A stretch of 35,102 nucleotides of DNA, taken from a virus. The notes under the pieces are model-generated. The model was not told the origin of the DNA. It ran no database searches and worked only from the letters and a program-made list of their open reading frames with translations. Each line of letters begins with the position of its first letter. Within the stretch, counting starts at the first letter, position 1. Positions 24,091 through 34,701 of this stretch are shown here, one piece after another. A program made the position numbers and the translations under genes. The stretch is taken from UHGV virus genome UHGV-0089682. The stretch is one strand, 5' to 3'.

Positions 24091-24591
24091 TCAGACTTTC
24101 GGCAAATCGTAACGACATAACCATTCATCCGCCGAACGGCGGGCCTCAAGACCGGGGAGTTTTACCCCCTTTGAATAAATCCAGCGGATATACTGCTTAC
24201 AGGACGCGGGCATCTGCCCGGCATTGATAAGGCGCAGGAGCGTGGAGTTGCGAAAGTTCGTTTCACCGGCCCAGAACACCCAGGAAGCCAGCGCCACCGT
24301 CTGACCACGGGTAAGCGGCACCTGAACATAACGATCAATGGCCGCAAAGGCCCATTTCATGTCCTTTTCCAGCAGCTCCAGACATTCTTCATCAGTTTTT
24401 GTCATCCCCGGTTTCACATCCGGGCCGGTATGGCCGTAGCAGATGGTGGGGGTGCCGGTGGGATCAATGTACGTGGTGTTTCCTTTCCCTTCCCAGTAGC
24501 CGGTGTAGTGCGTGGCAATGGTGAACGTCCCGGCTCCGGCCAGGACAAGGGCAATCAGCTTTTTACGCAGTGGCGCGGGGAGTTTTGGCAT
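24091..24591 (-). CDS. Endolysin, T4-lysozyme-like (GH24) with N-terminal signal-anchor-release-type segment
   Basis: 166 aa; catalytic triad spacing E-x8-D-x5-T in WEGKGNTTYIDPTGTPT; N-terminal KKLIALVLAGAGTFTIATH is weakly hydrophobic and Gly/Ala-rich, as in SAR endolysins. Confidence 0.85.
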   Translation of the reverse strand: MPKLPAPLRKKLIALVLAGAGTFTIATHYTGYWEGKGNTTYIDPTGTPTICYGHTGPDVKPGMTKTDEECLELLEKDMKWAFAAIDRYVQVPLTRGQTVALASWVFWAGETNFRNSTLLRLINAGQMPASCKQYIRWIYSKGVKLPGLEARRSADEWLCRYDLPKV

Positions 24592-24662
24592 TGTTACGCT
24601 GTCTCATGGTGTTCTCTGAGTCAGCGTAACCGTGGGAAAAAGGGGGCAGGATTTGCGGAATA
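24592..24662. promoter_or_regulatory. Candidate late (lysis) promoter region between the Mor/C-family gene and the endolysin
   Basis: 71-bp intergenic gap directly upstream of the first late gene; no explicit motif verified. Confidence 0.3.
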
Positions 24663-25085
24663 TCAGAAAAGCCGGGGCTGCGTGCGTTCCTGATGCAGGC
24701 GGCGCTGGTTGCGGATAACGGAGTAAATCTGCGTCTCTGACATCTGGTAGTGGCGGCGCAGGGTTTCAATTTTTTCGCCCTGGCTCCAGCGGGAAAAAAT
24801 TTCATTATTGCGCAGTTCGGTGAAAAGGGATTCACCGACCGGGAGATAATAACCACGCCCGCCCATGTACCCGGCCTGTGCGGCTGCAACCTTACGGGCA
24901 AGCATTCCCGCCTGAGCAGGTTCAATCCCCTGACGGTGCAGTTCAGCACTGATCACATCAACCAGGTCCCGCAGCGTGCCGGGCCAGTTCTTTTTCAGCT
25001 CATCATCAGGAATGTCATCCAGACGGTCAATCAGCGCGTGCAGTTGTTCGCTGTCACCAAACATGCTCATCTGTGTTTCAGCCAT
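24663..25085 (-). CDS. Mor/C-family transcriptional activator
   Basis: 140 aa; C-terminal HTH ...TLRRHYQMSETQIYSVIRNQRRL... resembles the Mor/C family C-terminus as I recall it; GGAGG SD; sits between gemA and lys. Confidence 0.75.
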   Translation of the reverse strand: MAETQMSMFGDSEQLHALIDRLDDIPDDELKKNWPGTLRDLVDVISAELHRQGIEPAQAGMLARKVAAAQAGYMGGRGYYLPVGESLFTELRNNEIFSRWSQGEKIETLRRHYQMSETQIYSVIRNQRRLHQERTQPRLF

Positions 25086-25155
25086 ACCCGCCTCCGGTCA
25101 TCATTACACAGGGCAAGTTTAAAATAAAAATCCCGCGCTGTGGCGGTATTTGGGG

Positions 25156-25665
25156 TTAACGGGGGAATGATTTTTCATACAGCCTGCAAACACGCTCATA
25201 ACTCATCACTGCACGCTCCGACATATCTAGGGCGGCCAGCATCTTGCGGCGGTGCCAGCGTTTGAGACGCTCCAGCACATCAGAGGCCAGCGCGGGGTGT
25301 TGCTCCAGCCACTGCCAGTTAGCCACACCTTCGCCGCCGTTCTGAGCGGTCGTCTGCGATTTCACCCAGCGGTTAAGGGCCGTTTCCCCGCCATCAGAAA
25401 TAAAGCCCTGCCGGTGCATCACCTTCCAGATGGCGCGAATTTTGGCGGTCACCGTCCCCGGTTTTAAGGCCCGGTTAACCGGCTTCTGACGCACTTTAAA
25501 ACCGCGTTTTTTGAAAACATCCAGCACGCGGGATAACTCATCCGGTGACATATCCCGGCAACTGGGTTTGCCGGTGGCTGCCAGTAGTACGGATGTGTAG
25601 GTTTCATCATCCAGGGCAAGCTCGCGTTTTGCCACATGAATGGCAGATATCAGTTTCCCTCTCAT
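25156..25665 (-). CDS. GemA-like regulatory protein (Mu gp16 family)
   Basis: 169 aa; N-terminus MRGKLISAIHVAKRELALDDETY... matches the Mu gp16 family pattern from memory; immediately upstream of the Mor-family gene as in Mu. Confidence 0.6.
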   Translation of the reverse strand: MRGKLISAIHVAKRELALDDETYTSVLLAATGKPSCRDMSPDELSRVLDVFKKRGFKVRQKPVNRALKPGTVTAKIRAIWKVMHRQGFISDGGETALNRWVKSQTTAQNGGEGVANWQWLEQHPALASDVLERLKRWHRRKMLAALDMSERAVMSYERVCRLYEKSFPR

Positions 25666-25958
25666 GCTGTATCAACACTCCTGCTGATATGATAGGTATT
25701 ATTTTCCCGATCGAGCTGAACCCGATACTCCGGAGGAATCACAAAAATATTAAAACCATCATCAGTTTTTATTCTTGAGTAGCATTCCCCCTTATGATAT
25801 CTGGCCAGTGCATTAATCAGCGAAGCCGCCGCCAGCCCAATCAGGTATTTTTTATGAAAAATACTGATAACTTTCCGGCACAGCCATCGTGTAATGACGA
25901 ATGCACCGAAAAACGATGTGATATATAAACACCAGAACAACTGCGAACTACTGTCCAT
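25662..25958 (-). CDS. Hypothetical membrane-anchored protein (AT-rich cassette, gene 4 of 4)
   Basis: 98 aa; N-terminal TM-like QLFWCLYITSFFGAFVITRWL; local GC ~40% versus >55% backbone; overlapping start/stop with neighbours. Confidence 0.45.
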   Translation of the reverse strand: MDSSSQLFWCLYITSFFGAFVITRWLCRKVISIFHKKYLIGLAAASLINALARYHKGECYSRIKTDDGFNIFVIPPEYRVQLDRENNTYHISRSVDTA

Positions 25959-26145
25959 TATCTTTCTCCTTATTCAGTCTTCTGCGGCATTCGGCGCAGT
26001 CATCAGGGCTTTCAAATGTATCCGGCTCGCGATTATGAGCCAGATATAACCACCGTCCACATATACTGATATTATCGCCAGTTTTAAAAAAATGATGCTT
26101 CTTAGCCATCAGAGGGCGCGCCCATCCAGCGGGTAGACTATTCAT
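25948..26145 (-). CDS. Hypothetical small Cys/His-containing protein (AT-rich cassette, gene 3 of 4)
   Basis: 65 aa; ...ISICGRW...DDCAECRRR..., possible small metal-binding fold; overlaps neighbours by 8-11 nt. Confidence 0.4.
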   Translation of the reverse strand: MNSLPAGWARPLMAKKHHFFKTGDNISICGRWLYLAHNREPDTFESPDDCAECRRRLNKEKDNGQ

Positions 26146-26512
26146 TTGCTTTATCCTCCATACTGGACAAAATCATCTGTATTAATGTCGGGCGTGGAGA
26201 TATACGCATTTCATTAAGCGTCTGAAGGGCAGCAACAGCTGCCTGTTTATCGGTGCCTTTGGCAATTTCCGCAAGAGTATGCACAATCCATAACGGACTT
26301 AACGCCACGGCTGAATCCAGAATCATGTCATCCATAATAATTTCTGGCACATCCAGTTTGTCATACTCCTTATCCATAAAAGAAACGATTTTTTCCACAT
26401 CTTCCGGTTTCATGCCTCCGGCGATGAGAATTTTTCTATATTCATAAGACGTTCTTAATTCAATACTCATATTCATCTCCTGTAACGCTGACAAGGACGT
26501 AATTTTTCTCAT
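26138..26512 (-). CDS. Hypothetical protein (AT-rich cassette, gene 2 of 4)
   Basis: 124 aa, acidic, no recognisable motif; 4-nt overlaps on both sides. Confidence 0.45.
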   Translation of the reverse strand: MRKITSLSALQEMNMSIELRTSYEYRKILIAGGMKPEDVEKIVSFMDKEYDKLDVPEIIMDDMILDSAVALSPLWIVHTLAEIAKGTDKQAAVAALQTLNEMRISPRPTLIQMILSSMEDKANE

Positions 26513-26694
26513 TTATGTTTTCCAGTAATACGGATATATATGTCGATAAGAAGATTCATAATAAACAGGAAGAGCGACATCATGATAAAGAACCATATAT
26601 CTGGCATCATGGACAGATTTCCTGTAACCGAAAATATAAAACCAACCACCCCAACTGGAACGATAATTGCGAAAAGTATAAGTCGCTTTATCAT
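26509..26694 (-). CDS. Hypothetical small two-helix membrane protein (AT-rich cassette, gene 1 of 4)
   Basis: 61 aa with two hydrophobic segments (LILFAIIVPVGVVGFIFSV and IWFFIMMSLFLFIMNLLIDIYI). Confidence 0.45.
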   Translation of the reverse strand: MIKRLILFAIIVPVGVVGFIFSVTGNLSMMPDIWFFIMMSLFLFIMNLLIDIYIRITGKHK

Positions 26695-27320
26695 GGCGTT
26701 AACTCCCGTAATACAGCGTCCTCGGCGGTCCGGCGACGGTAATAAACTGCGTGAGCAGAATGTTCAGATATTCCAAACTTTTCGCCAATTTCCCGGAATG
26801 ACAGACGGCGTGGGTAATCGGAATCACGCAGCGCACGTATAAGACGTACATCATCATCAGATATGCGCGTGCCGGGGCGTAACTCTCCGCACTTTGTTAA
26901 TCCGGCACCAATCATTCCTGCCCGACATCTGACAGAATCTTTATTACGTCCGAGATATTCTCCCATTTGCTGGCAGGTCATTGTTCTGGCATACGTGACG
27001 GGCGAATATTCACGCCACAGAATGTTCAGTTCATCAGAGGCAACACGCAGGGTTTTAGGTATACGTGATGTGCGCGGCGTGCAGCTCCAGCCATTCGACG
27101 CAGTCGGTTTTCTCCATAAGTCGCGATGAAAAGGATATTTGTCATCCATAAAGCGCAGCCCCTTAAAACAAAATCCACTGATACCGGATACAAATACCGG
27201 GCGGCACGCAACATTCAGCACGGCCTCAAGGCGTTTTGCCTCATCTTTTACCGTCTGGCAGTCCTGCTGGTATTTTTGCCACGCAGCCAGCGCGGAAGGG
27301 TTTGATGTTTTAAAGAACAT
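26691..27320 (-). CDS. Hypothetical early protein with C-terminal helix-turn-helix
   Basis: 209 aa; C-terminal RLSFREIGEKFGISEHSAHAVYYRRR is HTH-like. Confidence 0.45.
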   Translation of the reverse strand: MFFKTSNPSALAAWQKYQQDCQTVKDEAKRLEAVLNVACRPVFVSGISGFCFKGLRFMDDKYPFHRDLWRKPTASNGWSCTPRTSRIPKTLRVASDELNILWREYSPVTYARTMTCQQMGEYLGRNKDSVRCRAGMIGAGLTKCGELRPGTRISDDDVRLIRALRDSDYPRRLSFREIGEKFGISEHSAHAVYYRRRTAEDAVLRELTP

Positions 27321-27853
27321 TACGCCACCTCCGCAGATATCCCGGCAGGCGCTGCTGTCCGGTCAACAATCAGGTAGCGCAGAACACGCGCGGTGATATT
27401 CCAGCCGCTTAAACCGCAGATAATGACACCCAGGCGAATGTCGATATACGCCATCACAAACTGGGGTACGCCTTCTTTCATGGCCTGCTCATCAACTTCA
27501 GCCACCACATAAACGGTTTCACAGGTCAGTACGCCCTGAGCAAATTCCCACGCCATCGACGGAATATCATGCCCCTCAATCCACGGCAGGGATTTTCTGA
27601 AGCTGCACCACTGAACATCATCAGCCGCACATTCCTGGCTGCATTTGCGACGAACCGGCTGCACCGGGCGGGGACGCGGAATATCATAAAAACCGTTACA
27701 TTCCGTCAGCACGCCTGCATCAACCGCATCACGCAGAAAATAAACCATGGAGGATGGCGGCATATTCATTTTTTCAGCCAGTACACCGCAGGTCAGACGT
27801 CCGTAAATACTCAGCCAGTTTTTAACCCCTTCAAGCACTTTTGCATCAATCAT
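27320..27853 (-). CDS. Hypothetical early protein, N-terminal winged-helix-like region and Cys cluster
   Basis: 177 aa; N-terminal LTCGVLAEKMNMPPSSMVYFLRDAVDAGVL; Cys cluster KCSQECAADDVQWC. Confidence 0.4.
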   Translation of the reverse strand: MIDAKVLEGVKNWLSIYGRLTCGVLAEKMNMPPSSMVYFLRDAVDAGVLTECNGFYDIPRPRPVQPVRRKCSQECAADDVQWCSFRKSLPWIEGHDIPSMAWEFAQGVLTCETVYVVAEVDEQAMKEGVPQFVMAYIDIRLGVIICGLSGWNITARVLRYLIVDRTAAPAGISAEVA

Positions 27854-27856
27854 GAA

Positions 27857-28399
27857 TTATTCCTCCGTAAGCGCCACATATTCAGAATGTTTAATTTCCT
27901 GGCATTCTTCAGGAATACACCCGTTTATTTCCCTGCCATAAGCGCCTACTTTAAGCACCACACACAGAGCATCACGGGAGAGCGACGGGGTCCACCAGGA
28001 GTCCGTGTTAAACATGGAGGGGATTCTCATTACCCCCAGCTTTTCACAGAGCCAGACAAGGAAATCAGGATGTTTTCTTAAATCGCGTTCAGCGGCTTCA
28101 ACCATTGCGGCAATCGCCGGTCCTTCAGGGCATAACTCATCAGGTCTGGCAATAAAGCACTGTCCGTCCCCGATAAAAGCCACATCATCGCGCTTACGCC
28201 AGCCCGCAGGCAGAGCACCGGCAAAATAAAACTCACTGACTCTGTCCATGGCGAACGGCTTTAAGCGCAATCCGGCAGCGCCTGTATTTTTCAGTAATGC
28301 CCGAAGAATACTGTTGCGTAGCGGTAAAACAGTCTGTTGATATTTGGTGAAATATTTATTTGTCTGCACACGGTCTAATTTGAAATAAAAATATGCCAT
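27857..28399 (-). CDS. Hypothetical early protein
   Basis: 180 aa ORF immediately downstream of gam; no recognisable motif. Confidence 0.4.
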   Translation of the reverse strand: MAYFYFKLDRVQTNKYFTKYQQTVLPLRNSILRALLKNTGAAGLRLKPFAMDRVSEFYFAGALPAGWRKRDDVAFIGDGQCFIARPDELCPEGPAIAAMVEAAERDLRKHPDFLVWLCEKLGVMRIPSMFNTDSWWTPSLSRDALCVVLKVGAYGREINGCIPEECQEIKHSEYVALTEE

Positions 28400-28496
28400 A
28401 TTTCCGATTCCTTATTTTCAGCTTTCGGGCGCAAGCAGTCCCCTGACGCGAGCGCCATACTTAAAACGATGTGATATTTAAAGATTTAATGCGGTG

Positions 28497-29027
28497 TTAT
28501 TTATTCAGTCCGGCGTCCTGTTCAAAAGGCTCGACATAAAAACTTTCAGCGCCTTTATTCACCTTAATACCGGCAATGCCTTTCACTGCATCCGGCTCCG
28601 CCAGGACGGCTTCCTTGTTCACTTCCTCTTTCGTGCGGATGAATCGCTCAAGCCCCATACGGCGCAGCATTTCAATCACACCTTCCACATCACGGCTGAC
28701 GCTGCATGATGGCGTTCCCAGCCGCCATGACACCGTTCCGGTGGTCAGATTGGCTGTTTTGGTTTTGCCGCCGTTCGTCAGCTCATCACGGTTGGTTTTG
28801 CACCAGTCCTGAATCCCTTTAAAAAGCACTTTGATTTGCTTTTTAAGATTTTCAATCTGCGGCGTATAACGGGCGGTGATTTCAGCCACCTCGTCATTCA
28901 TTGCCGTTTCCAGGCGCAGCGCCTCTCGCTGAATATCGCCCAGGGTGCGGATATCACGGCTGACTTCTTCGCGGGTCTGCGGTGCGGCCTCGGCTGCGGC
29001 CTTTAATTTTGTAACGCGTTTTGCCAT
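28497..29027 (-). CDS. gam: Host-nuclease inhibitor Gam (Mu Gam / Ku-like DNA end-binding protein)
   Basis: 176 aa; size matches Mu Gam (~174 aa) and position in early region; coiled-coil N-terminal half. Confidence 0.7.
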   Translation of the reverse strand: MAKRVTKLKAAAEAAPQTREEVSRDIRTLGDIQREALRLETAMNDEVAEITARYTPQIENLKKQIKVLFKGIQDWCKTNRDELTNGGKTKTANLTTGTVSWRLGTPSCSVSRDVEGVIEMLRRMGLERFIRTKEEVNKEAVLAEPDAVKGIAGIKVNKGAESFYVEPFEQDAGLNK

Positions 29028-29038
29028 TTTGTTTTTCC

Positions 29039-29332
29039 TTATTGCAATGTATCTGGTGCGTTCTGCAAAGAACGGCGCTCAATGCTGCTTTTCACCCCCA
29101 GAGCCTGCATGGAACCCTGAAGTTCATCTGTCAGAAACTGAATAATTGTGGGGCTGTGATATTTAAGAATTTGAGCATAAACATCACAGGGTCCTGTCGG
29201 TCTGTTCTCCGTATCACGTTCGATTTTTACAGTGGCAGTAACACCCTCCGTGATTTCCTCACTATCATTACCGGCTGGCTTTACTTCATGCATTACGTAG
29301 TCAAATTCAAAAATAACGCGAACTTTGCTCAT
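29039..29332 (-). CDS. Small early protein, paralog B of tandem pair
   Basis: ATG at 29330-29332; begins MSKVRVIFEFDYV; shares N-terminus and start-codon-proximal nucleotides (cgcgttatttttgaat) with the adjacent upstream gene. Confidence 0.5.
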   Translation of the reverse strand: MSKVRVIFEFDYVMHEVKPAGNDSEEITEGVTATVKIERDTENRPTGPCDVYAQILKYHSPTIIQFLTDELQGSMQALGVKSSIERRSLQNAPDTLQ

Positions 29333-29336
29333 GGAA

Positions 29337-29687
29337 TTACCCCTGTTGATTAAATTCATTACCGTTAATAACCCCGGAAGCCATGCCCCTGTCTTTCATG
29401 AATGCACTGACTTTCATTGCCACAAACTCTGCGAAGTTTCTGCTTTCTGCCAGCATAACCACCCCAAAAATCATAGCGGGTCCATTATCTTTCTTCTTTA
29501 TTCCGGTTGAACGTATATCCAGACTTACTCCTCTGTACGTGCTGCCATCAGCGTTTTTGCAGATAACATCTTCTTTGTATTCAAAAATAACGCGCACAAC
29601 CTTACTCATCCTCTGGTCCTCGTTTTGTTCGGATAACTGACCCGGCGTCCGACCTGATGACAGAGCCGAACCATGAAGTAACTTCAT
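29337..29687 (-). CDS. Small early protein, paralog A of tandem pair (likely true start at 29609)
   Basis: Internal ATG at 29607-29609 gives MSKVVRVIFEYKEDV...; the longer track ORF starts at 29687 overlapping the upstream stop. Confidence 0.5.
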   Translation of the reverse strand: MKLLHGSALSSGRTPGQLSEQNEDQRMSKVVRVIFEYKEDVICKNADGSTYRGVSLDIRSTGIKKKDNGPAMIFGVVMLAESRNFAEFVAMKVSAFMKDRGMASGVINGNEFNQQG

Positions 29688-29914
29688 ACTTCCCAGTAAA
29701 CCGTGCAGCCGCTGATGCGGGTGGCTTTTACACGGCGGCGCAGGCCATTGGTCTTAACGGTGATTTCAATTTCCTCTCCAGTCCCATGAACCTTGCTTAG
29801 CGGTGGCGTGGTTTTCAGTGCAAAGCGTTGCGGGTAGCGTTTGCTGCGCTCCAGTACCGCACCGGCAAGTTCGGTCAGGCGACGGGCGTTATTCAGTGAA
29901 TCAAACAAATTCAT
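29684..29914 (-). CDS. Hypothetical small basic early protein
   Basis: 76 aa, Arg/Lys-rich; overlapping start/stop with neighbours. Confidence 0.4.
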   Translation of the reverse strand: MNLFDSLNNARRLTELAGAVLERSKRYPQRFALKTTPPLSKVHGTGEEIEITVKTNGLRRRVKATRISGCTVYWEV

Positions 29915-30320
29915 AGGTGAACTCCGGTTGTATCAGTAATGGATTCATGCGCAATGCAGCCAGCTCTGACAGGAAGCCTTGATTAACTTTACCCATCCCC
30001 GGAATTTTTCGGGTTTCGCCACGTATGATTGCCCGAAGAATGGAGTAACCGTGCCGCCACTCCCGACGATAATCCTCCATGATCAGAAAACCAAAGCGCA
30101 GGCTTTCCCATACGTCCACATCAAAGCATTCATGATTAAAACGGCGTCTGATGGGTTCAGGTTGCATGTCTGCATACCACTGATACAGGTCTATATACAG
30201 AAAACACACACCATTACTGTTCATCAATTCATAGATATAATCACAAACCTCCCCGTCATCGACGTTAAACTCTCGAAAGCTGTGGAGAACATTGATTTCC
30301 TGCTGTATCTGCATTTTCAT
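29901..30320 (-). CDS. Hypothetical early protein
   Basis: 139 aa; AT-rich coding region; no recognisable motif. Confidence 0.4.
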   Translation of the reverse strand: MKMQIQQEINVLHSFREFNVDDGEVCDYIYELMNSNGVCFLYIDLYQWYADMQPEPIRRRFNHECFDVDVWESLRFGFLIMEDYRREWRHGYSILRAIIRGETRKIPGMGKVNQGFLSELAALRMNPLLIQPEFTYEFV

Positions 30321-30332
30321 ATAACCTCTCGT

Positions 30333-30560
30333 TTAACTAACCCGTCTTGCACCGATAAAGCGACAAATATTGCTGTAAGCTTCTTTCGCACCTTCACGAT
30401 CAAGTCCTGCCGATATTGCCATTCGGGTGCGATCATTAAATTCAAAGAGTAAATAGCCACATTCTTCACTGTCAGACATGGAGACTGCTTTGACGTTATC
30501 GAAATTCACCAGGTAAAAGCGTCCGTAAATATCAGGAATATTAAATGCAGCCATAATCAC
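30333..30560 (-). CDS. Small early protein in the Mu kil position
   Basis: 75 aa ORF starting 4 nt inside the B stop; Mu Kil is of similar size (~74 aa) and position. Sequence identity not verified. Confidence 0.4.
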   Translation of the reverse strand: MIMAAFNIPDIYGRFYLVNFDNVKAVSMSDSEECGYLLFEFNDRTRMAISAGLDREGAKEAYSNICRFIGARRVS

Positions 30561-31489
30561 ACCTGTGAGAGTAATTCAGGGTTGGTATAAACCTCTTTAA
30601 AGGCCGCATTAATATGTTTTTCTGTCAGCGCCGCACCTTCACCGCTGGCGGTGATCCACGCCTGGTTAAGCGTATGTGTCAGAACGCGTAAGGCTCCCGG
30701 CTTTTCAGCGATGGCCTGCATGACGGCCAGCTCGGCCTCACCACTGATACCCCATGCCCTGGCAATGGCCAGCACATCCGCCTTTTTGGCCTTGCGAAGT
30801 TGTTTTGTACGGGCAAGACGGCTGAACAGACGAGATAAATCATCAACGGCGCGGCGTCCACCTTTAAACAGCCCGCGCGGGTTACCAATAAGCACCATCC
30901 CGATCCCCGTGGCGTCCTGAATTGCCCGGAGTTGCTCCAGGCCGTCAATACCAAGATGATCCGCCTCATCAACAATCACCAGTCCACGCGTTCCCATCAG
31001 GCGACGACGGATGGCGCGGGATAATGCCCCTTTGTTCGCGCGGGTGTAATCAATCCCCAGCTCCTCTGCCAACTCCAGCAGACACTCCGTGACGCTGGAA
31101 TGCGCGGGAGACAGGGTGATCATCCAGGTGTTCGGTTGCTCCTGGCAGTAATTACGGGCGGTGGCCGTTTTACCCACACCCGGTACACCAACAATGACGT
31201 TAATACAGCCCATCAGGCGAACCGCCTGAAACAGTGCGCGCAGCTCCTGGACTGTCTGTGTTTCCACAAACTGCGGCGGTTCCGGCAGTGCGCTTTGTTT
31301 ATTCCAGTTCTCATACCAGGAACGCAGGGAAGCAGCCACAGCAGCGTTATCGCCTTTATATTTCCCCTTACGGAAAGCCGATAATGTACCGTCGGAAATT
31401 CCCGCCTCTCTGGCGATGGCATACTGCGTCAGTACGCCGCCATCAATAAGTTCATCAATGGTCTTGATTACATCGTTTATATCGGTCAT
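30557..31489 (-). CDS. B: Transposition ATPase MuB (AAA+ target DNA activator)
   Basis: 310 aa; Walker A GVPGVGKT, Walker B-like LVIVDEADHL; N-terminal HTH-like region; directly downstream of the transposase. Confidence 0.88.
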   Translation of the reverse strand: MTDINDVIKTIDELIDGGVLTQYAIAREAGISDGTLSAFRKGKYKGDNAAVAASLRSWYENWNKQSALPEPPQFVETQTVQELRALFQAVRLMGCINVIVGVPGVGKTATARNYCQEQPNTWMITLSPAHSSVTECLLELAEELGIDYTRANKGALSRAIRRRLMGTRGLVIVDEADHLGIDGLEQLRAIQDATGIGMVLIGNPRGLFKGGRRAVDDLSRLFSRLARTKQLRKAKKADVLAIARAWGISGEAELAVMQAIAEKPGALRVLTHTLNQAWITASGEGAALTEKHINAAFKEVYTNPELLSQV

Positions 31490-31564: not shown

Positions 31565-33670
31565 TCAGGCCAGAGGGTCATTTTCTTTTAATTTCGCTTC
31601 AAGCAGCTGCAATCCCCGCTGGAAATTACGCTCGTATTCTTCATCAGGTTCATCGTCAGCGACCGGTTGCTGAACGGTCACCGTATTACCCACAGGGCGG
31701 TATATATTTTCCAGCCACGGCTCCTGTGGCTTGTGCTCCAGCACGTTGACAATCTCATCCTCGGCATCACGGATTTTTTCCTCTGCGCGTTTACGCATGC
31801 CTTTAAGGCGCTGCTGCTGTTTGTAGTATTCCGCGCTGACCGGGAAGGCTTCGCGTTTATTGCCGTCCCATACCGCCTCGCAAATCACGCTGCCATCCGG
31901 GCGGCGCACGGTAATTCGTTCGGCATCATGAATGTCATAGCTGATAAGTACCTTACGGCCATGCTCGTCACGCAGCTCGGGCGCGTAGTAAATATTATTC
32001 AGCCAGCGTATTTCACAGCGTCTTACAGGGCGCTCCACCATCGGCCGGAACATATCCCGCAGCTCAACATCGGACAGCCATTCAATTTCCGTGTCCTCTT
32101 CCGCCAGGCGTTTTTTTCTGAACTCCGCCGGGCTGTAATGTTTACCGTTCGGCTTCATGGGTAATTCATCGTGCGGCCGGTTGTTGTACCACTCAACACC
32201 GTCACGAATGGCATCAATCAGTTCAGACCAGGACGGTAAATCACGCATCGCTGACTGCTGCCGGGCGTTCAGCCACTTACCCTGTTGCAGGGCACTGAAT
32301 GCCGAGCGTAAATCGCGGTTGGTTTTGCGTAACGTCTCGCGATCTGCACCTTTCCCGAAATAGGTGCGGTATTTACGGGCTATGCGCATCGGTAATGTGC
32401 GGTTAAGCCGTTCGATAATGCCCCGTCCCTGCGGATTACCGGCAATCCCGGTCGGGTGATTAATCCCCAGTCGTGGCAGGATCCCCACAACTTCCTTATC
32501 CAGGACGTCGGCGGTTTCCCCGGAACCGTTATCCGAGTAATACAGAAACGGTTTGCCGTGATGGCGAATGCCGTGCTGTATGGCACCGGCTACAGCGAAA
32601 ACATTTTCAGCCAGATCAAGGCTCCAGCCCACCACAAAGCGCGTGCCACCGTCGATAACAAAGGTCACTTCCGGTGCAAATGGCCGCCCGTGAACCGGGT
32701 GCGCACATTTCAGCTTCATGCCGTGACCGTCACCAATCCAGACATAATTCACCGGCATTTTTGACCAGTCGCGGCGCGTGAATCCCTCAAGCTGACGGTA
32801 TTCACTGCCGGTCACCCGGCCTTTTTGTTTCACCACTTCCGGCAGTTTCTTCATTGCGCGGCGAATGGTGTCATAAGACGGCATGATATCGAGCATATAA
32901 GGCTCATCAGCGTGCCGGTGCTGCCATTCAGCGACAAAATCCTCGTAAGCCTCGGTCATTGGGCGGCCGTTTGACTGGCGATACTGCGCCAGAAATTCGG
33001 GCAGCCAGTTAATATCTTCGGCTTTTATTTCCTGACGTTTACCAGGTGCCAGTAAAAGCAGGCATTCAGCGGCGTTCTGTGCCTTGTTAAAGGCCGCAAT
33101 CCAGCGTTTCAGCGTGATTTCACTCAACGCGCGGCGGTTTCCCTTTTTGGCGTTCGCCGTCTCAACCATTGCCACAATGCGCTCGTCCAGTTGTGAGCGT
33201 GCCAGGCTGTCAACGATAAACCGGATAGCCTTAGCGCAACTAAAGCCGGGTTGTTGCGCGACTTTCATCACTTCGCTGACGATCGCGATTCGTGCATCGG
33301 CCACCTGGCGCTGGTTTTCAGTCAGGGCATTGAGGCGTTCGACCATCAGTTGTGGTGATCCGCGATATGCCTCCACCGCATTAACCACGGCAGGTGAGCG
33401 TCTGGCTTTTGTCACCACCGGAGCCGGTGATTCGTCGGCTTTTTGCGTCATCAGTTGAAGGGCGTAACGTTCGCGTAATACTTGTTGTGCACAATAAGGC
33501 AAACAATCGATATTAAATTCGATGGCTTTTGTTCCCTTACGTTTGCGTAACATGGCTGCATTTCCAGCAGCTGCTTTTGTGAGTCTATGGCGAATGTTAT
33601 GTTCCATCATTGGTAAATCAGGAAGACCAACACATTCTTTTGCTGTTACCCACATACATCCCTCCATCAA
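31565..33670 (-). CDS. A: DDE transposase MuA
   Basis: 701 aa; catalytic motifs WIGDGH, YYSDNGS and GIIERLN (D-D-E) in Mu-like spacing; overlaps ner stop. Confidence 0.9.
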   Translation of the reverse strand: MMEGCMWVTAKECVGLPDLPMMEHNIRHRLTKAAAGNAAMLRKRKGTKAIEFNIDCLPYCAQQVLRERYALQLMTQKADESPAPVVTKARRSPAVVNAVEAYRGSPQLMVERLNALTENQRQVADARIAIVSEVMKVAQQPGFSCAKAIRFIVDSLARSQLDERIVAMVETANAKKGNRRALSEITLKRWIAAFNKAQNAAECLLLLAPGKRQEIKAEDINWLPEFLAQYRQSNGRPMTEAYEDFVAEWQHRHADEPYMLDIMPSYDTIRRAMKKLPEVVKQKGRVTGSEYRQLEGFTRRDWSKMPVNYVWIGDGHGMKLKCAHPVHGRPFAPEVTFVIDGGTRFVVGWSLDLAENVFAVAGAIQHGIRHHGKPFLYYSDNGSGETADVLDKEVVGILPRLGINHPTGIAGNPQGRGIIERLNRTLPMRIARKYRTYFGKGADRETLRKTNRDLRSAFSALQQGKWLNARQQSAMRDLPSWSELIDAIRDGVEWYNNRPHDELPMKPNGKHYSPAEFRKKRLAEEDTEIEWLSDVELRDMFRPMVERPVRRCEIRWLNNIYYAPELRDEHGRKVLISYDIHDAERITVRRPDGSVICEAVWDGNKREAFPVSAEYYKQQQRLKGMRKRAEEKIRDAEDEIVNVLEHKPQEPWLENIYRPVGNTVTVQQPVADDEPDEEYERNFQRGLQLLEAKLKENDPLA

Positions 33671-34089: not shown

Positions 34090-34701
34090 ATGGATAAGGC
34101 AGAAAAAACCGTATCCAGTGCGGAACGGTTTATTGATATGGAAGGAATAAACCGATTTTCAGAACGCTTAGCTATGGCTATGGGCGACATGACAAACGTC
34201 GAACTGGCGACCCTTTGTGGACTATCTGAAGCCACAGTAAGAAATTACAGGAAGGGGAAAAACTTCCCTCCTTTGGATAAACTGGCCTTAATAGCTAAAG
34301 CCTGTAATTGTTCACTCGAATGGTTGGCCACAGGCAAGAACGAAGATGAATGCGGGGTAATCGAAAATAATTGCGACGCAAGTTCGGGCATTGATCAGGC
34401 GCTTAGTTCTCTAAGCCCCCAAGAGAAGCAATTAATCCTTACATTCATCAGGCGAGAAGGTACTAACAACCTTGTCAGGCTGGCAGCAATGAATACATCT
34501 ACAATCAGCCAGGATGCGGTAGAAAGCATCATTGATGCCTTGCCATTACGTCCCGTACTAAAAAATGCAATAAAGATAGGAATGGCGGGAAGTGAAGAAA
34601 CAGACAAAGAGATTTTGCGCGTTATTGAGAAGTACAACACGAGCAATAACACTGTCCAAGAATCAAAGGCGATGACAGTAAAGAAAAATGCTATTAGTTA
34701 A
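34090..34701 (+). CDS. Mu c-type repressor
   Basis: 203 aa, divergent from ner; N-terminal HTH-like LATLCGLSEATVRNYRKG; position between early operon and phage end as in Mu. Confidence 0.75.
   Translation: MDKAEKTVSSAERFIDMEGINRFSERLAMAMGDMTNVELATLCGLSEATVRNYRKGKNFPPLDKLALIAKACNCSLEWLATGKNEDECGVIENNCDASSGIDQALSSLSPQEKQLILTFIRREGTNNLVRLAAMNTSTISQDAVESIIDALPLRPVLKNAIKIGMAGSEETDKEILRVIEKYNTSNNTVQESKAMTVKKNAIS

What the first reader, a model, noticed from the sequence alone, without database searches (positions are those of the whole stretch)
25662..26694. AT-rich four-gene cassette with two membrane proteins in the early region
Four co-oriented ORFs with 4-11 nt start/stop overlaps: 61 aa two-helix membrane protein, 124 aa acidic protein, 65 aa Cys/His protein, 98 aa TM-anchored protein. 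GC is roughly 35-45% in 60-nt windows against >55% in the structural genes, suggesting horizontal acquisition. Small membrane plus soluble partners in the Mu semi-essential region fit superinfection-exclusion, abortive-infection or anti-defence cargo. I recognise no known family by eye, so this is the best candidate here for an undescribed system.
Basis: partly seen in the sequence, partly recalled or inferred. Interest (0 to 1): 0.65.

Follow-up and report, generated by a model that had tools for sequence, protein, structure and literature searches.

The report
Variable small early genes, Mu-like prophage
The four small genes are real, but they are four independently shuffled accessory genes of unknown function in a known variable spot of a Mu-like prophage's early operon, not one new multi-gene system.

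Summary
Four co-oriented minus-strand ORFs lie at 25662-26694, at 40.8% GC against 57.7% in the structural genes. They sit in the early operon of an Sp18-type Mu-like prophage, between a gp12/HTH gene and gemA. One correction: the "124 aa" product is most likely 110 aa, starting at 26470.

The "four-gene system" reading does not hold.
- Close relatives carry at least six different gene sets in this same slot.
- The 65-aa Cys/His protein occurs alone in 36 lambdoid-type viral contigs (37th hit a fragment) and in several unrelated phages.
- The 110-aa protein family occurs without the other three in SfMu-type phages.
- The 98-aa gene has two alleles that are recombined just after a conserved N-terminal hydrophobic segment.

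None of the four resembles Mu gp13, gp14 or gp15. None matches any Pfam, NCBIfam, PADLOC or PDB entry. Three belong to PHROG families of unknown function.

All four evolve under purifying selection. They are packed against neighbouring early genes by start/stop overlaps, and there is no excess of promoter- or terminator-like sites.

Best reading: independent accessory early genes in a region of genomic plasticity, probably each acting alone on a host target during lytic growth. Their functions remain unknown. Interest is modest.

The parts
26509..26694 (-). Gene for a 61-aa, very hydrophobic protein. It is predicted to form a two-helix hairpin (about residues 5-23 and 33-52) with basic N- and C-termini, so both ends are probably cytoplasmic.
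   Evidence: ORF; hydropathy. Weak match to phrog_19804 (E 2e-4). Found in 109 of 5,426 complete E. coli genomes, against 231 carrying the gemA-mor marker. Replaced by two unrelated genes in L005 and L006. dN/dS 0.29-0.53.
26138..26470 (-). Gene for a 110-aa acidic, all-helical protein of phrog_1988. The open frame runs up to 26512 (124 aa), but the start at 26470 is preferred.
25948..26145 (-). Gene for a 65-aa Cys/His protein of phrog_2358. Conserved motif: GWxRP...(K)HHxF...SxCGxW...EPDTFESPDDCxxCR. It is probably zinc-binding.
   Evidence: phrog_2358 at E 1e-33. Alignment A1 shows invariant or near-invariant H17, H18, C29, C50 and C53. Occurs alone in 37 IMG/VR hits (36 intact, one 24-residue fragment). 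The most frequent neighbouring ORFs, pooled over the 36 loci, include lambda-P, DnaT-domain and Hok/Gef types. Also in Klebsiella, Pantoea, Buchananvirus and Pseudomonas phages. dN/dS 0.03-0.13. AlphaFold2 pLDDT 72.9; no significant PDB fold match.
25662..25958 (-). Gene for a 98-aa protein. Residues 1-35 form a conserved hydrophobic segment, a possible N-out membrane anchor followed by basic residues. The C-terminal ~60 residues are soluble and variable.
   Evidence: phrog_17269 at E 4e-67. Homologues found only in E. coli Mu-like prophages. Two alleles are 50% identical overall, nearly identical up to residue ~35 and divergent after it. The DNA breakpoint is near window 25850. The window-type C-terminal allele is in 65 genomes. 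Hydropathy is marginal.
26691..27320 (-). Upstream flank. A 209-aa in-frame fusion of the N-terminal 113 residues of Mu gp12 with the C-terminal ~96 residues of an HTH (SANT/Myb-like) DNA-binding protein. It was created by a 440-bp deletion.
   Evidence: Residues 1-113 are 50% identical to Mu gp12. Residues 1-113 match phrog_2314 and residues 111-208 match phrog_323. Relatives have two separate genes here. Deletion mapped.
26974..26992 (.). 19-bp stretch present once in the window but twice, 440 bp apart, in relatives. It marks the junction of the deletion that fused gp12 to the HTH gene.
   Evidence: blastn of the window against L001, L002 and L006: the two aligned blocks overlap at 26974-26992.
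25156..25665 (-). Downstream flank: gemA (Mu gp16 family). Its start overlaps the stop of the 98-aa gene (ATGA).
   Evidence: Pfam GemA at E 1e-29; 46% identity to Mu GemA.
27320..27853 (-). Conserved early gene gp11, which marks the upstream side of the variable slot.
   Evidence: Pfam Gp11_C at E 4.5e-40; 68% identity to Mu gp11.

Best explanation
The interval is the variable slot between gp12/HTH and gemA in the early (Pe) operon of an Sp18-type Mu-like prophage. Here it holds four separately inherited accessory genes, not one system.

Shown:
- The genes are real and under purifying selection.
- They are packed into the early gene string by start/stop overlaps (inferred translational coupling), and the region shows no excess of promoter- or terminator-like sites.
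- Each is gained, lost or replaced independently among close relatives.
- The 65-aa and 110-aa families each occur elsewhere without the other three.

Inferred:
- They are made together with the transposition and Gam functions when the prophage enters lytic growth, or at a trickle from leaky Pe transcription.
- Each acts alone as a small binder of a host component, as known Mu semi-essential genes do (Kil on cell division, Gam on RecBCD, GemA on gyrase and ligase expression).
- The 65-aa protein is a small zinc-binding module with a basic C-terminal helix, likely to bind a nucleic acid or a conserved host protein.
- The 110-aa protein is an acidic helical protein specific to enterobacterial Mu-family phages.
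- The 61-aa hairpin and the 98-aa anchored protein act at the inner membrane. The 98-aa protein's variable cytoplasmic domain suggests a changing target.
For: Context:
- Mu-like gene order, in window coordinates (early operon on the minus strand): Gin-like invertase, lysozyme, Mor, GemA, gp11, Gam, MuB, MuA, CI-type repressor.
- Mu itself has different, non-homologous genes (gp13, gp14, Mu_54) in the same slot.

Independent assortment within the lineage. Six slot architectures were seen:
- 61-110-65-98
- 61-110-65-98'
- 103/109-116/122-110-65-98(')
- 109-122-98
- 109-98'
- 109-122-110' followed by an opposite-strand 136-aa ORF

Counts in 5,426 complete E. coli genomes:
- gemA-mor marker: 231
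- 110+65 segment: 209
- 61-aa gene: 109
- window-type 98 C-terminal allele: 65

Autonomy:
- 37 viral loci carry the 65-aa homologue at 62-72% identity with none of the other three (one is a 24-residue fragment).
- ORFs pooled over the 36 intact loci include lambda-type replication and nin-type genes.
- L027 is another Mu-like phage with only the 65-aa homologue directly before gemA.
- 24 Mu/SfMu-type loci carry the 110-aa homologue without the other three.

Expression context: overlaps with both flanking early genes, and promoter-like and terminator-like sites at chance level.

Coding: dN/dS below 1 for all four.

Literature:
- Semi-essential genes are largely uncharacterised and transcribed from Pe (PMC3820752).
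- Mu-like Pseudomonas phages carry 34-100-codon accessory ORFs in defined regions of genomic plasticity, some of them anti-CRISPRs (PMC4378225).
- SfMu ORF14 was noted as absent from Mu and D108 (PMC4406740).
Against: - No function is shown for any product; the mechanistic part is inference from context.
- The 110-aa and 65-aa genes stay together in 209 genomes of this lineage, so a two-gene unit cannot be ruled out by co-occurrence within the lineage alone.
- Independent assortment does not strictly exclude that products cooperate when present together.
- Both structure models are of moderate or low confidence and gave no informative fold match.
- Promoter scanning covers only sigma-70 consensus sites.
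Confidence: 0.66

Rival explanations
1. The four products work together as one undescribed system, with membrane sensor or effector proteins plus soluble partners, for superinfection exclusion, abortive infection or anti-defence.
For: The genes are tightly packed, co-oriented and overlapping. The set mixes two hydrophobic and two soluble small proteins. No known family matches. The full set is found in a subset of E. coli prophages.
Against: - At least six alternative gene sets fill the same slot in near-identical prophages.
- The 65-aa gene stands alone in 36 intact non-Mu loci, a 37th hit being a fragment.
- The 110-aa family is without the other three in SfMu-type phages.
- The 98-aa gene is present without the other three.
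- The 61-aa gene is missing from about half of the lineage.
- The same overlaps link the cassette to unrelated neighbours (the HTH gene and gemA), so packing is a feature of the whole operon.
Confidence: 0.06
2. Only the 110-aa and 65-aa genes form a functional pair in this lineage. The 61-aa and 98-aa genes are unrelated neighbours.
For: The 110+65 segment is the most constant part of the slot: 209 of 231 genomes. The two genes share an 8-nt overlap.
Against: Each family is found without the other outside this lineage. Within the lineage, L075-L083 carry a 110' variant without the 65-aa gene. L027 has the 65-aa gene without the 110-aa gene. Linkage within one lineage is expected from common descent.
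Confidence: 0.1
3. One or both hydrophobic proteins (61 aa, 98 aa) are made in the lysogen from leaky early transcription. They protect the lysogen by blocking DNA entry of other phages, that is, single-protein superinfection exclusion.
For: Small inner-membrane proteins are a common form of phage exclusion factor (general knowledge). Low-level Pe transcription reaching semi-essential genes was reported in Mu lysogens (PMC3820752). The variable C-terminal domain of the 98-aa protein would fit an arms race.
Against: There is no own promoter or terminator above chance. The genes lie about 7-8 kb downstream of the expected Pe position, judging from the repressor and MuA coordinates. The positive-inside rule puts the variable domain of the 98-aa protein in the cytoplasm, not facing incoming phage (inference from the sequence). 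No match to any PADLOC model.
Confidence: 0.12
4. The ORFs are chance open frames in an AT-rich spacer and encode nothing.
For: Low GC lowers the stop-codon barrier only weakly. The 61-aa ORF has only a weak family match.
Against: - dN/dS is below 1 for all four.
- Shine-Dalgarno motifs lie before each start.
- Three ORFs have strong PHROG matches.
- The reading frames are conserved across alleles down to 75% identity for the 61-aa gene and 50% for the 98-aa gene.
- The ORFs fill the interval with no spare space.
Confidence: 0.02

Closest known systems
Phage Mu semi-essential early genes gp13, gp14 and Mu_54 (gp15), between gp12 and gemA
   Same: Same position in the same operon, between homologous flanks: gp11 68%, gp12 N-half 50% and GemA 46% identical. 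The makeup is similar: a ~60-aa Cys-rich protein, a ~100-aa helical protein and a further small ORF. GC is below that of the neighbours: 45.5-48% in Mu. Functions are unknown.
   Different: No detectable sequence similarity (blastp E > 0.01). Mu has a 105-bp gap with a mapped promoter before gemA, whereas here the 98-aa gene overlaps the gemA start. Mu's slot genes include no hydrophobic protein like the 61-aa one.
SfMu ORF14 (YP_009152200, 102 aa) and its relatives in Yersinia Mu-like phages
   Same: Homologue of the 110-aa protein: 35% identity, E 3e-14. Both share the motif LSPxWI..L..IA.G.DK.AAVAAL and the same slot before gemA.
   Different: In SfMu it sits between Mu-type gp13 and gp14, with no 61-, 65- or 98-aa partners. 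The SfMu paper lists it as having no homologue in Mu or D108 and gives it no function (PMC4406740).
Regions of genomic plasticity with small accessory ORFs in Pseudomonas Mu-like phages (Cazares et al. 2014, PMC4378225)
   Same: Short ORFs (34-100 codons there, 61-110 here) sit at fixed sites between conserved core genes, mostly in the left (early) arm. They differ between otherwise near-identical phages, often deviate in GC and are mostly of unknown function.
   Different: Different phage group and no shared sequences. Some Pseudomonas accessory ORFs have proven functions (anti-CRISPRs); none is proven here.
Small uncharacterised ORFs downstream of the replication genes of lambdoid prophages (nin-type region)
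   Same: Homologues of the 65-aa protein at 62-72% identity lie in viral contigs whose neighbouring ORFs include lambda-P, DnaT-domain, DUF1627, dATP/dGTP pyrophosphohydrolase, Hok/Gef and DUF968 types.
   Different: Different phage type and different neighbours, which shows that the gene moves as a single unit.

Membership tests
Mu gp13 / gp14 / gp15 (Mu_54) | Detectable sequence homology to the Mu proteins | tested here: not met
   blastp of all four products against Mu early proteins: best E-values 0.045-1.7, short chance segments only.
Mu gp13 / gp14 / gp15 (Mu_54) | Position between gp12 and gemA in the early operon | tested here: met
   Flanks are homologous to Mu gp11, gp12 and GemA; Mu map.
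PHROG families phrog_1988 (110 aa), phrog_2358 (65 aa), phrog_17269 (98 aa) | Significant profile match over most of the protein | tested here: met
   E 1.7e-42, 1.1e-33 and 4.1e-67. The 65-aa protein covers only positions 4-67 of the 146-position phrog_2358 profile. All three families are annotated 'unknown function'.
PHROG family phrog_19804 (61 aa) | Significant profile match | tested here: inconclusive
   E 2.1e-4, 22.5 bits, for a low-complexity hydrophobic sequence.
Accessory ORFs in a region of genomic plasticity of Mu-like phages | Small ORFs at a fixed site between conserved core genes, differing among closely related genomes | tested here: met
   Six architectures between the HTH gene and gemA in prophages whose flanks are 85-99% identical.
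Accessory ORFs in a region of genomic plasticity of Mu-like phages | Base composition deviating from the core genes | tested here: met
   40.8% GC against 55.6% in gemA/mor and 57.7% in the structural genes.
Morons (prophage-expressed autonomous gene units) | Own promoter and terminator that allow expression from the repressed prophage | tested here: not met
   Promoter-like sites: 6 found against 6.9 +/- 2.8 expected. Terminator-like sites: 7 found against 5.9 +/- 2.3 expected. Start/stop overlaps with both neighbours leave no intergenic space. Only consensus scanning was possible.
Known anti-phage defence systems (PADLOC-DB v2) | Match to any model of a known or candidate defence protein | tested here: not met
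   No hit at E <= 1 for any of the four products.
Multi-gene system (operon of obligate partners) | Components co-occur across unrelated genomes | tested here: not met
   65-aa gene alone in 37 loci (36 intact, one fragment). 110-aa homologue without the other three in 24 loci. 98-aa gene without the 61-, 110- and 65-aa genes. 61-aa gene absent from 122 of 231 lineage genomes.
Class II holin (possible identity of the 61-aa hairpin) | Two transmembrane helices in a protein of about 60-100 aa | tested here: met
   Hydropathy shows two hydrophobic stretches. This feature alone is not specific.
Class II holin (possible identity of the 61-aa hairpin) | Location in the lysis cassette next to the endolysin, under late control | tested here: not met
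   The gene lies in the early operon, 1.9 kb upstream of the lysozyme gene (24091-24591), with the 110-, 65- and 98-aa genes, gemA and mor in between.
Zinc-binding small protein (65 aa) | Conserved set of four Cys/His ligands | tested here: inconclusive
   H17 and H18 are invariant; C29, C50 and C53 are conserved in at least 90% of 17 sequences. No match to a known zinc-finger family. Metal binding cannot be tested here.

The most novel reading that the evidence does not exclude
The 65-aa HH...C...CxxC protein (phrog_2358) is an undescribed, broadly useful phage factor, for example an inhibitor of a conserved host defence or DNA-transaction protein. It is strongly constrained (dN/dS 0.03-0.13). 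It is carried as a single mobile gene by Mu-like, lambdoid and Buchananvirus phages, and distant relatives (36-44% identical, by fold search) occur in Pseudomonas phages. In parallel, the 98-aa protein, with its fixed anchor and swapped cytoplasmic domain, would be an arms-race factor specific to E. coli Mu-like prophages.
Probability: 0.15. Interest if true: 0.55.

Novelty: new member of a known kind. Interest (0 to 1): 0.25.

Why it matters
The result removes a false lead: there is no four-gene system here. It also gives a usable map of a hypervariable slot, gp12/HTH to gemA, in the Mu-like prophages found in about 4% of complete E. coli genomes, many of them Shiga-toxin-producing strains.

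Such slots are where anti-defence and host-takeover genes have been found in other phages. The anti-CRISPRs of Pseudomonas Mu-like phages are one example.

The practical consequence is that the four genes should be tested one at a time. The widely spread 65-aa zinc-type protein is the most promising single candidate.

Tried and rejected
- Pfam, NCBIfam and PADLOC scans of all four products, and PDB sequence searches of the 110- and 65-aa products: no meaningful hit.
- The Foldseek afdb50 library was unavailable.
- BFVD returned only uncharacterised Pseudomonas phage proteins.
I reran it without that sequence.
- Exhaustive phmmer of the 110-aa protein gave only 10 hits, so no deeper profile could be built.
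- The third homologue search, for the 98-aa protein, gave only E. coli prophage proteins.
- An Rfam scan of 24500-29500 gave only a chance snoRNA-like hit below threshold.
- Promoter and terminator scans were at chance level.
- I considered and rejected a holin identity for the 61-aa protein because of its position. I also rejected orthology to Mu gp13-gp15 (no similarity) and the idea that the 124-aa start is the real one.
Full report
**What is there.** The window is a nearly complete Mu-like prophage with almost all genes on the minus strand.
- Pfam identifies a CI-type repressor (34090-34701, plus strand), MuA (31565-33670), MuB (30557-31489), Gam (28497-29027), gp11 (27320-27853), GemA (25156-25665), Mor (24663-25085) and a Gin-like invertase (523-1095). 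A 166-aa ORF at 24091-24591 corresponds to the lysozyme gene annotated in relatives.
- The finding's interval, 25662-26694, lies between a gp12-derived gene and gemA. That places it in the semi-essential early region.
- The four ORFs are present as described, on the minus strand: 61 aa (26509-26694), a 124-aa frame (26138-26512), 65 aa (25948-26145) and 98 aa (25662-25958).
- The overlaps are ATGA with the upstream gene, then 4, 8 and 11 nt inside the set, then ATGA with gemA.
- GC is 40.8% for the interval, against 55.6% for gemA/mor and 57.7% for the structural genes.

**One correction.** The 124-aa frame is most likely translated from the ATG at 26470, giving 110 aa.
- That ATG has AGGAG 6 nt upstream, while the upstream ATG has no comparable motif.
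- RefSeq uses the 26470-equivalent start in relatives.
- Every homologue in two very large protein collections is 102-111 aa long.

**Are they genes?** Yes.
- Compared with alleles from related prophages, dN/dS is 0.03-0.13 for the 65-aa gene, 0.18-0.29 for the 110-aa gene, 0.29-0.53 for the 61-aa gene and 0.36-0.68 for the 98-aa gene, the last from few substitutions.
- Three products match PHROG families strongly: phrog_1988, phrog_2358 and phrog_17269. The 61-aa product matches phrog_19804 weakly. All are annotated 'unknown function'.
- Hydropathy supports a two-helix hairpin with basic ends for the 61-aa product. For the 98-aa product it supports only a marginal 17-residue hydrophobic segment (residues 7-23) followed by basic residues.
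- The 110-aa product is acidic, with pI 4.67.

**Relation to Mu.**
- In Mu the slot between gp12 and gemA holds gp13 (60 aa, Cys-rich), gp14 (100 aa) and Mu_54 (55 aa).
- The flanks are homologous: gp11 68%, the gp12 N-half 50%, GemA 46% and Gam 57% identical. None of the four window proteins resembles any Mu early protein.
- The slot is therefore conserved while its content is not.
- Low GC in this slot is also seen in Mu (45.5-48%) and in SfMu ORF14 (43.7%).

**Is it one cassette?** No. In 5,426 complete E. coli genomes:
- the gemA-mor marker of this lineage is in 231;
- the 110+65 segment is in 209;
- the 61-aa gene is in 109;
- the window's allele of the 98-aa C-terminal part is in 65.

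Annotated relatives and IMG/VR contigs show at least six arrangements between the HTH gene and gemA:
- 61-110-65-98
- 61-110-65-98'
- 103/109-116/122-110-65-98(')
- 109-122-98
- 109-98'
- 109-122-110' followed by a 136-aa ORF on the opposite strand

The 98-aa gene has two alleles. They are almost identical through residue ~35 and about one-third identical after it. The DNA breakpoint is near window 25850.

**Outside the lineage the genes separate completely.**
- An IMG/VR scan with the 65-aa family returned 53 loci. Sixteen are Sp18-type prophages. The other 37 (one only a 24-residue fragment) carry the homologue at 62-72% identity and none of the other three.
- ORFs pooled over the 36 intact loci include lambda-P, DnaT-domain, DUF1627, dATP/dGTP pyrophosphohydrolase/DUF551, Hok/Gef and DUF968 types.
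- One locus, L027, is a different Mu-like phage in which the homologue alone sits directly before gemA.
- The same family occurs in a Klebsiella phage next to DNA methyltransferase genes, in Buchananvirus phages after a ParB-like gene, and in Pantoea and Pseudomonas phages.
- The 110-aa family is rare, with 10 hits at E<1e-3 among 1.8 billion cluster representatives. Outside the Sp18 lineage I found it only in Mu/SfMu-type prophages, again in the slot before gemA and without the other three.
- The SfMu paper had listed this gene (ORF14) as having no homologue in Mu or D108 (PMC4406740).

**What the proteins look like.**
- The 65-aa family has the conserved pattern GWxRP, (K)HHxF, SxCGxW and EPDTFESPDDCxxCR. 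H17 and H18 are invariant and C29, C50 and C53 nearly so. This suggests a zinc site followed by a basic helix.
- Pfam, NCBIfam and PADLOC (all four products) and PDB sequence searches (the 110- and 65-aa products) found nothing.

**How it most likely works.**
- Shown: the genes are embedded in the early gene string by overlaps on both sides, and promoter-like and terminator-like sites are at chance frequency.
- Inferred: they are transcribed from Pe with the transposition genes and Gam when lytic growth starts, and each acts alone on a host component. Characterised semi-essential genes of Mu work that way (general knowledge of Kil, Gam and GemA). The semi-essential region is described as largely uncharacterised and Pe-driven, with some leaky transcription in lysogens (PMC3820752).
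- This matches the 'region of genomic plasticity' pattern described for Pseudomonas Mu-like phages, where 34-100-codon accessory ORFs vary between near-identical genomes and some are anti-CRISPRs (PMC4378225).
- I put this explanation at about two-thirds. Against it I set a 110+65 pair (0.10), single-protein exclusion by a membrane product expressed in the lysogen (0.12), the four-gene system (0.06) and non-coding ORFs (0.02).

**Verdict.**
- The idea of variable, horizontally exchanged cargo is supported.
- The idea of a single undescribed system is not supported.
- The sequences are already catalogued as hypothetical proteins and PHROG families. Relatives of this prophage occur in O157 strains, where a Mu-like prophage (Sp18) has been described (PMC2669165); I did not compare the window with Sp18 directly, and use 'Sp18-type' only as a label.
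- I rate this a new member of a known kind, of modest interest.
- The 65-aa family is the best single target for follow-up.

Noticed in passing
window 26691-27320 (junction at 26974-26992): The gene upstream of the cassette is an in-frame fusion. The first 113 residues of Mu gp12 are joined to the last ~96 residues of an HTH (SANT/Myb-like, phrog_323) DNA-binding protein. Relatives have two separate genes (171 aa and 183 aa). The window lacks 440 bp between two copies of a 19-bp repeat.
   Followed up: yes
window 25662-25958; L004 2313-2609; L126, L127: The 98-aa gene has two alleles. They share an almost identical first ~35 residues (the hydrophobic segment) and diverge to about one-third identity afterwards. 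The recombination breakpoint is near window 25850. This looks like domain swapping or diversifying change in the soluble part.
   Followed up: partly
L076 3689-4099 (minus strand); same arrangement in L075-L083: In some related prophages the 65- and 98-aa genes are replaced by a 136-aa ORF on the opposite strand, between a variant 110-aa gene and gemA. A reverse-oriented insert in an otherwise one-directional operon could be a true moron.
   Followed up: no
window 27857-28399: A 180-aa gene (phrog_2260, weak DUF5420 match) lies between Gam and gp11. It is 40% identical to SfMu ORF11 and is absent from Mu. It is a second indel site in the early region, and it is missing from some relatives (for example L072, L076).
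   Followed up: partly
window 29039-30320: Three more small early ORFs (106, 116 and 139 aa) between MuB and Gam are also low in GC (43-44.5%) and match no Pfam family. Low GC is therefore a general trait of the small semi-essential genes, not of the cassette alone.
   Followed up: partly
E. coli M3 (H73) and STEC1587 (H76); L126 and L127: Some relatives carry an extra ~650-800 bp, with one to three annotated hypothetical genes, between gemA and mor. In the window these two genes are separated by only 70 bp. This is another variable site.
   Followed up: no
window 26581-26583 (codon 38 of the 61-aa gene): The window's 61-aa protein has Met at position 38, inside the second hydrophobic stretch. 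All five other distinct alleles examined have Arg there.
   Followed up: no
L060 3767-4153: In one lambdoid contig the homologue of the 65-aa protein lies at the C-terminal end of a 128-aa open frame. BFVD also lists a 136-aa Pseudomonas phage relative, and the phrog_2358 profile is 146 positions long. Some family members may therefore carry an extra N- or C-terminal domain.
   Followed up: no
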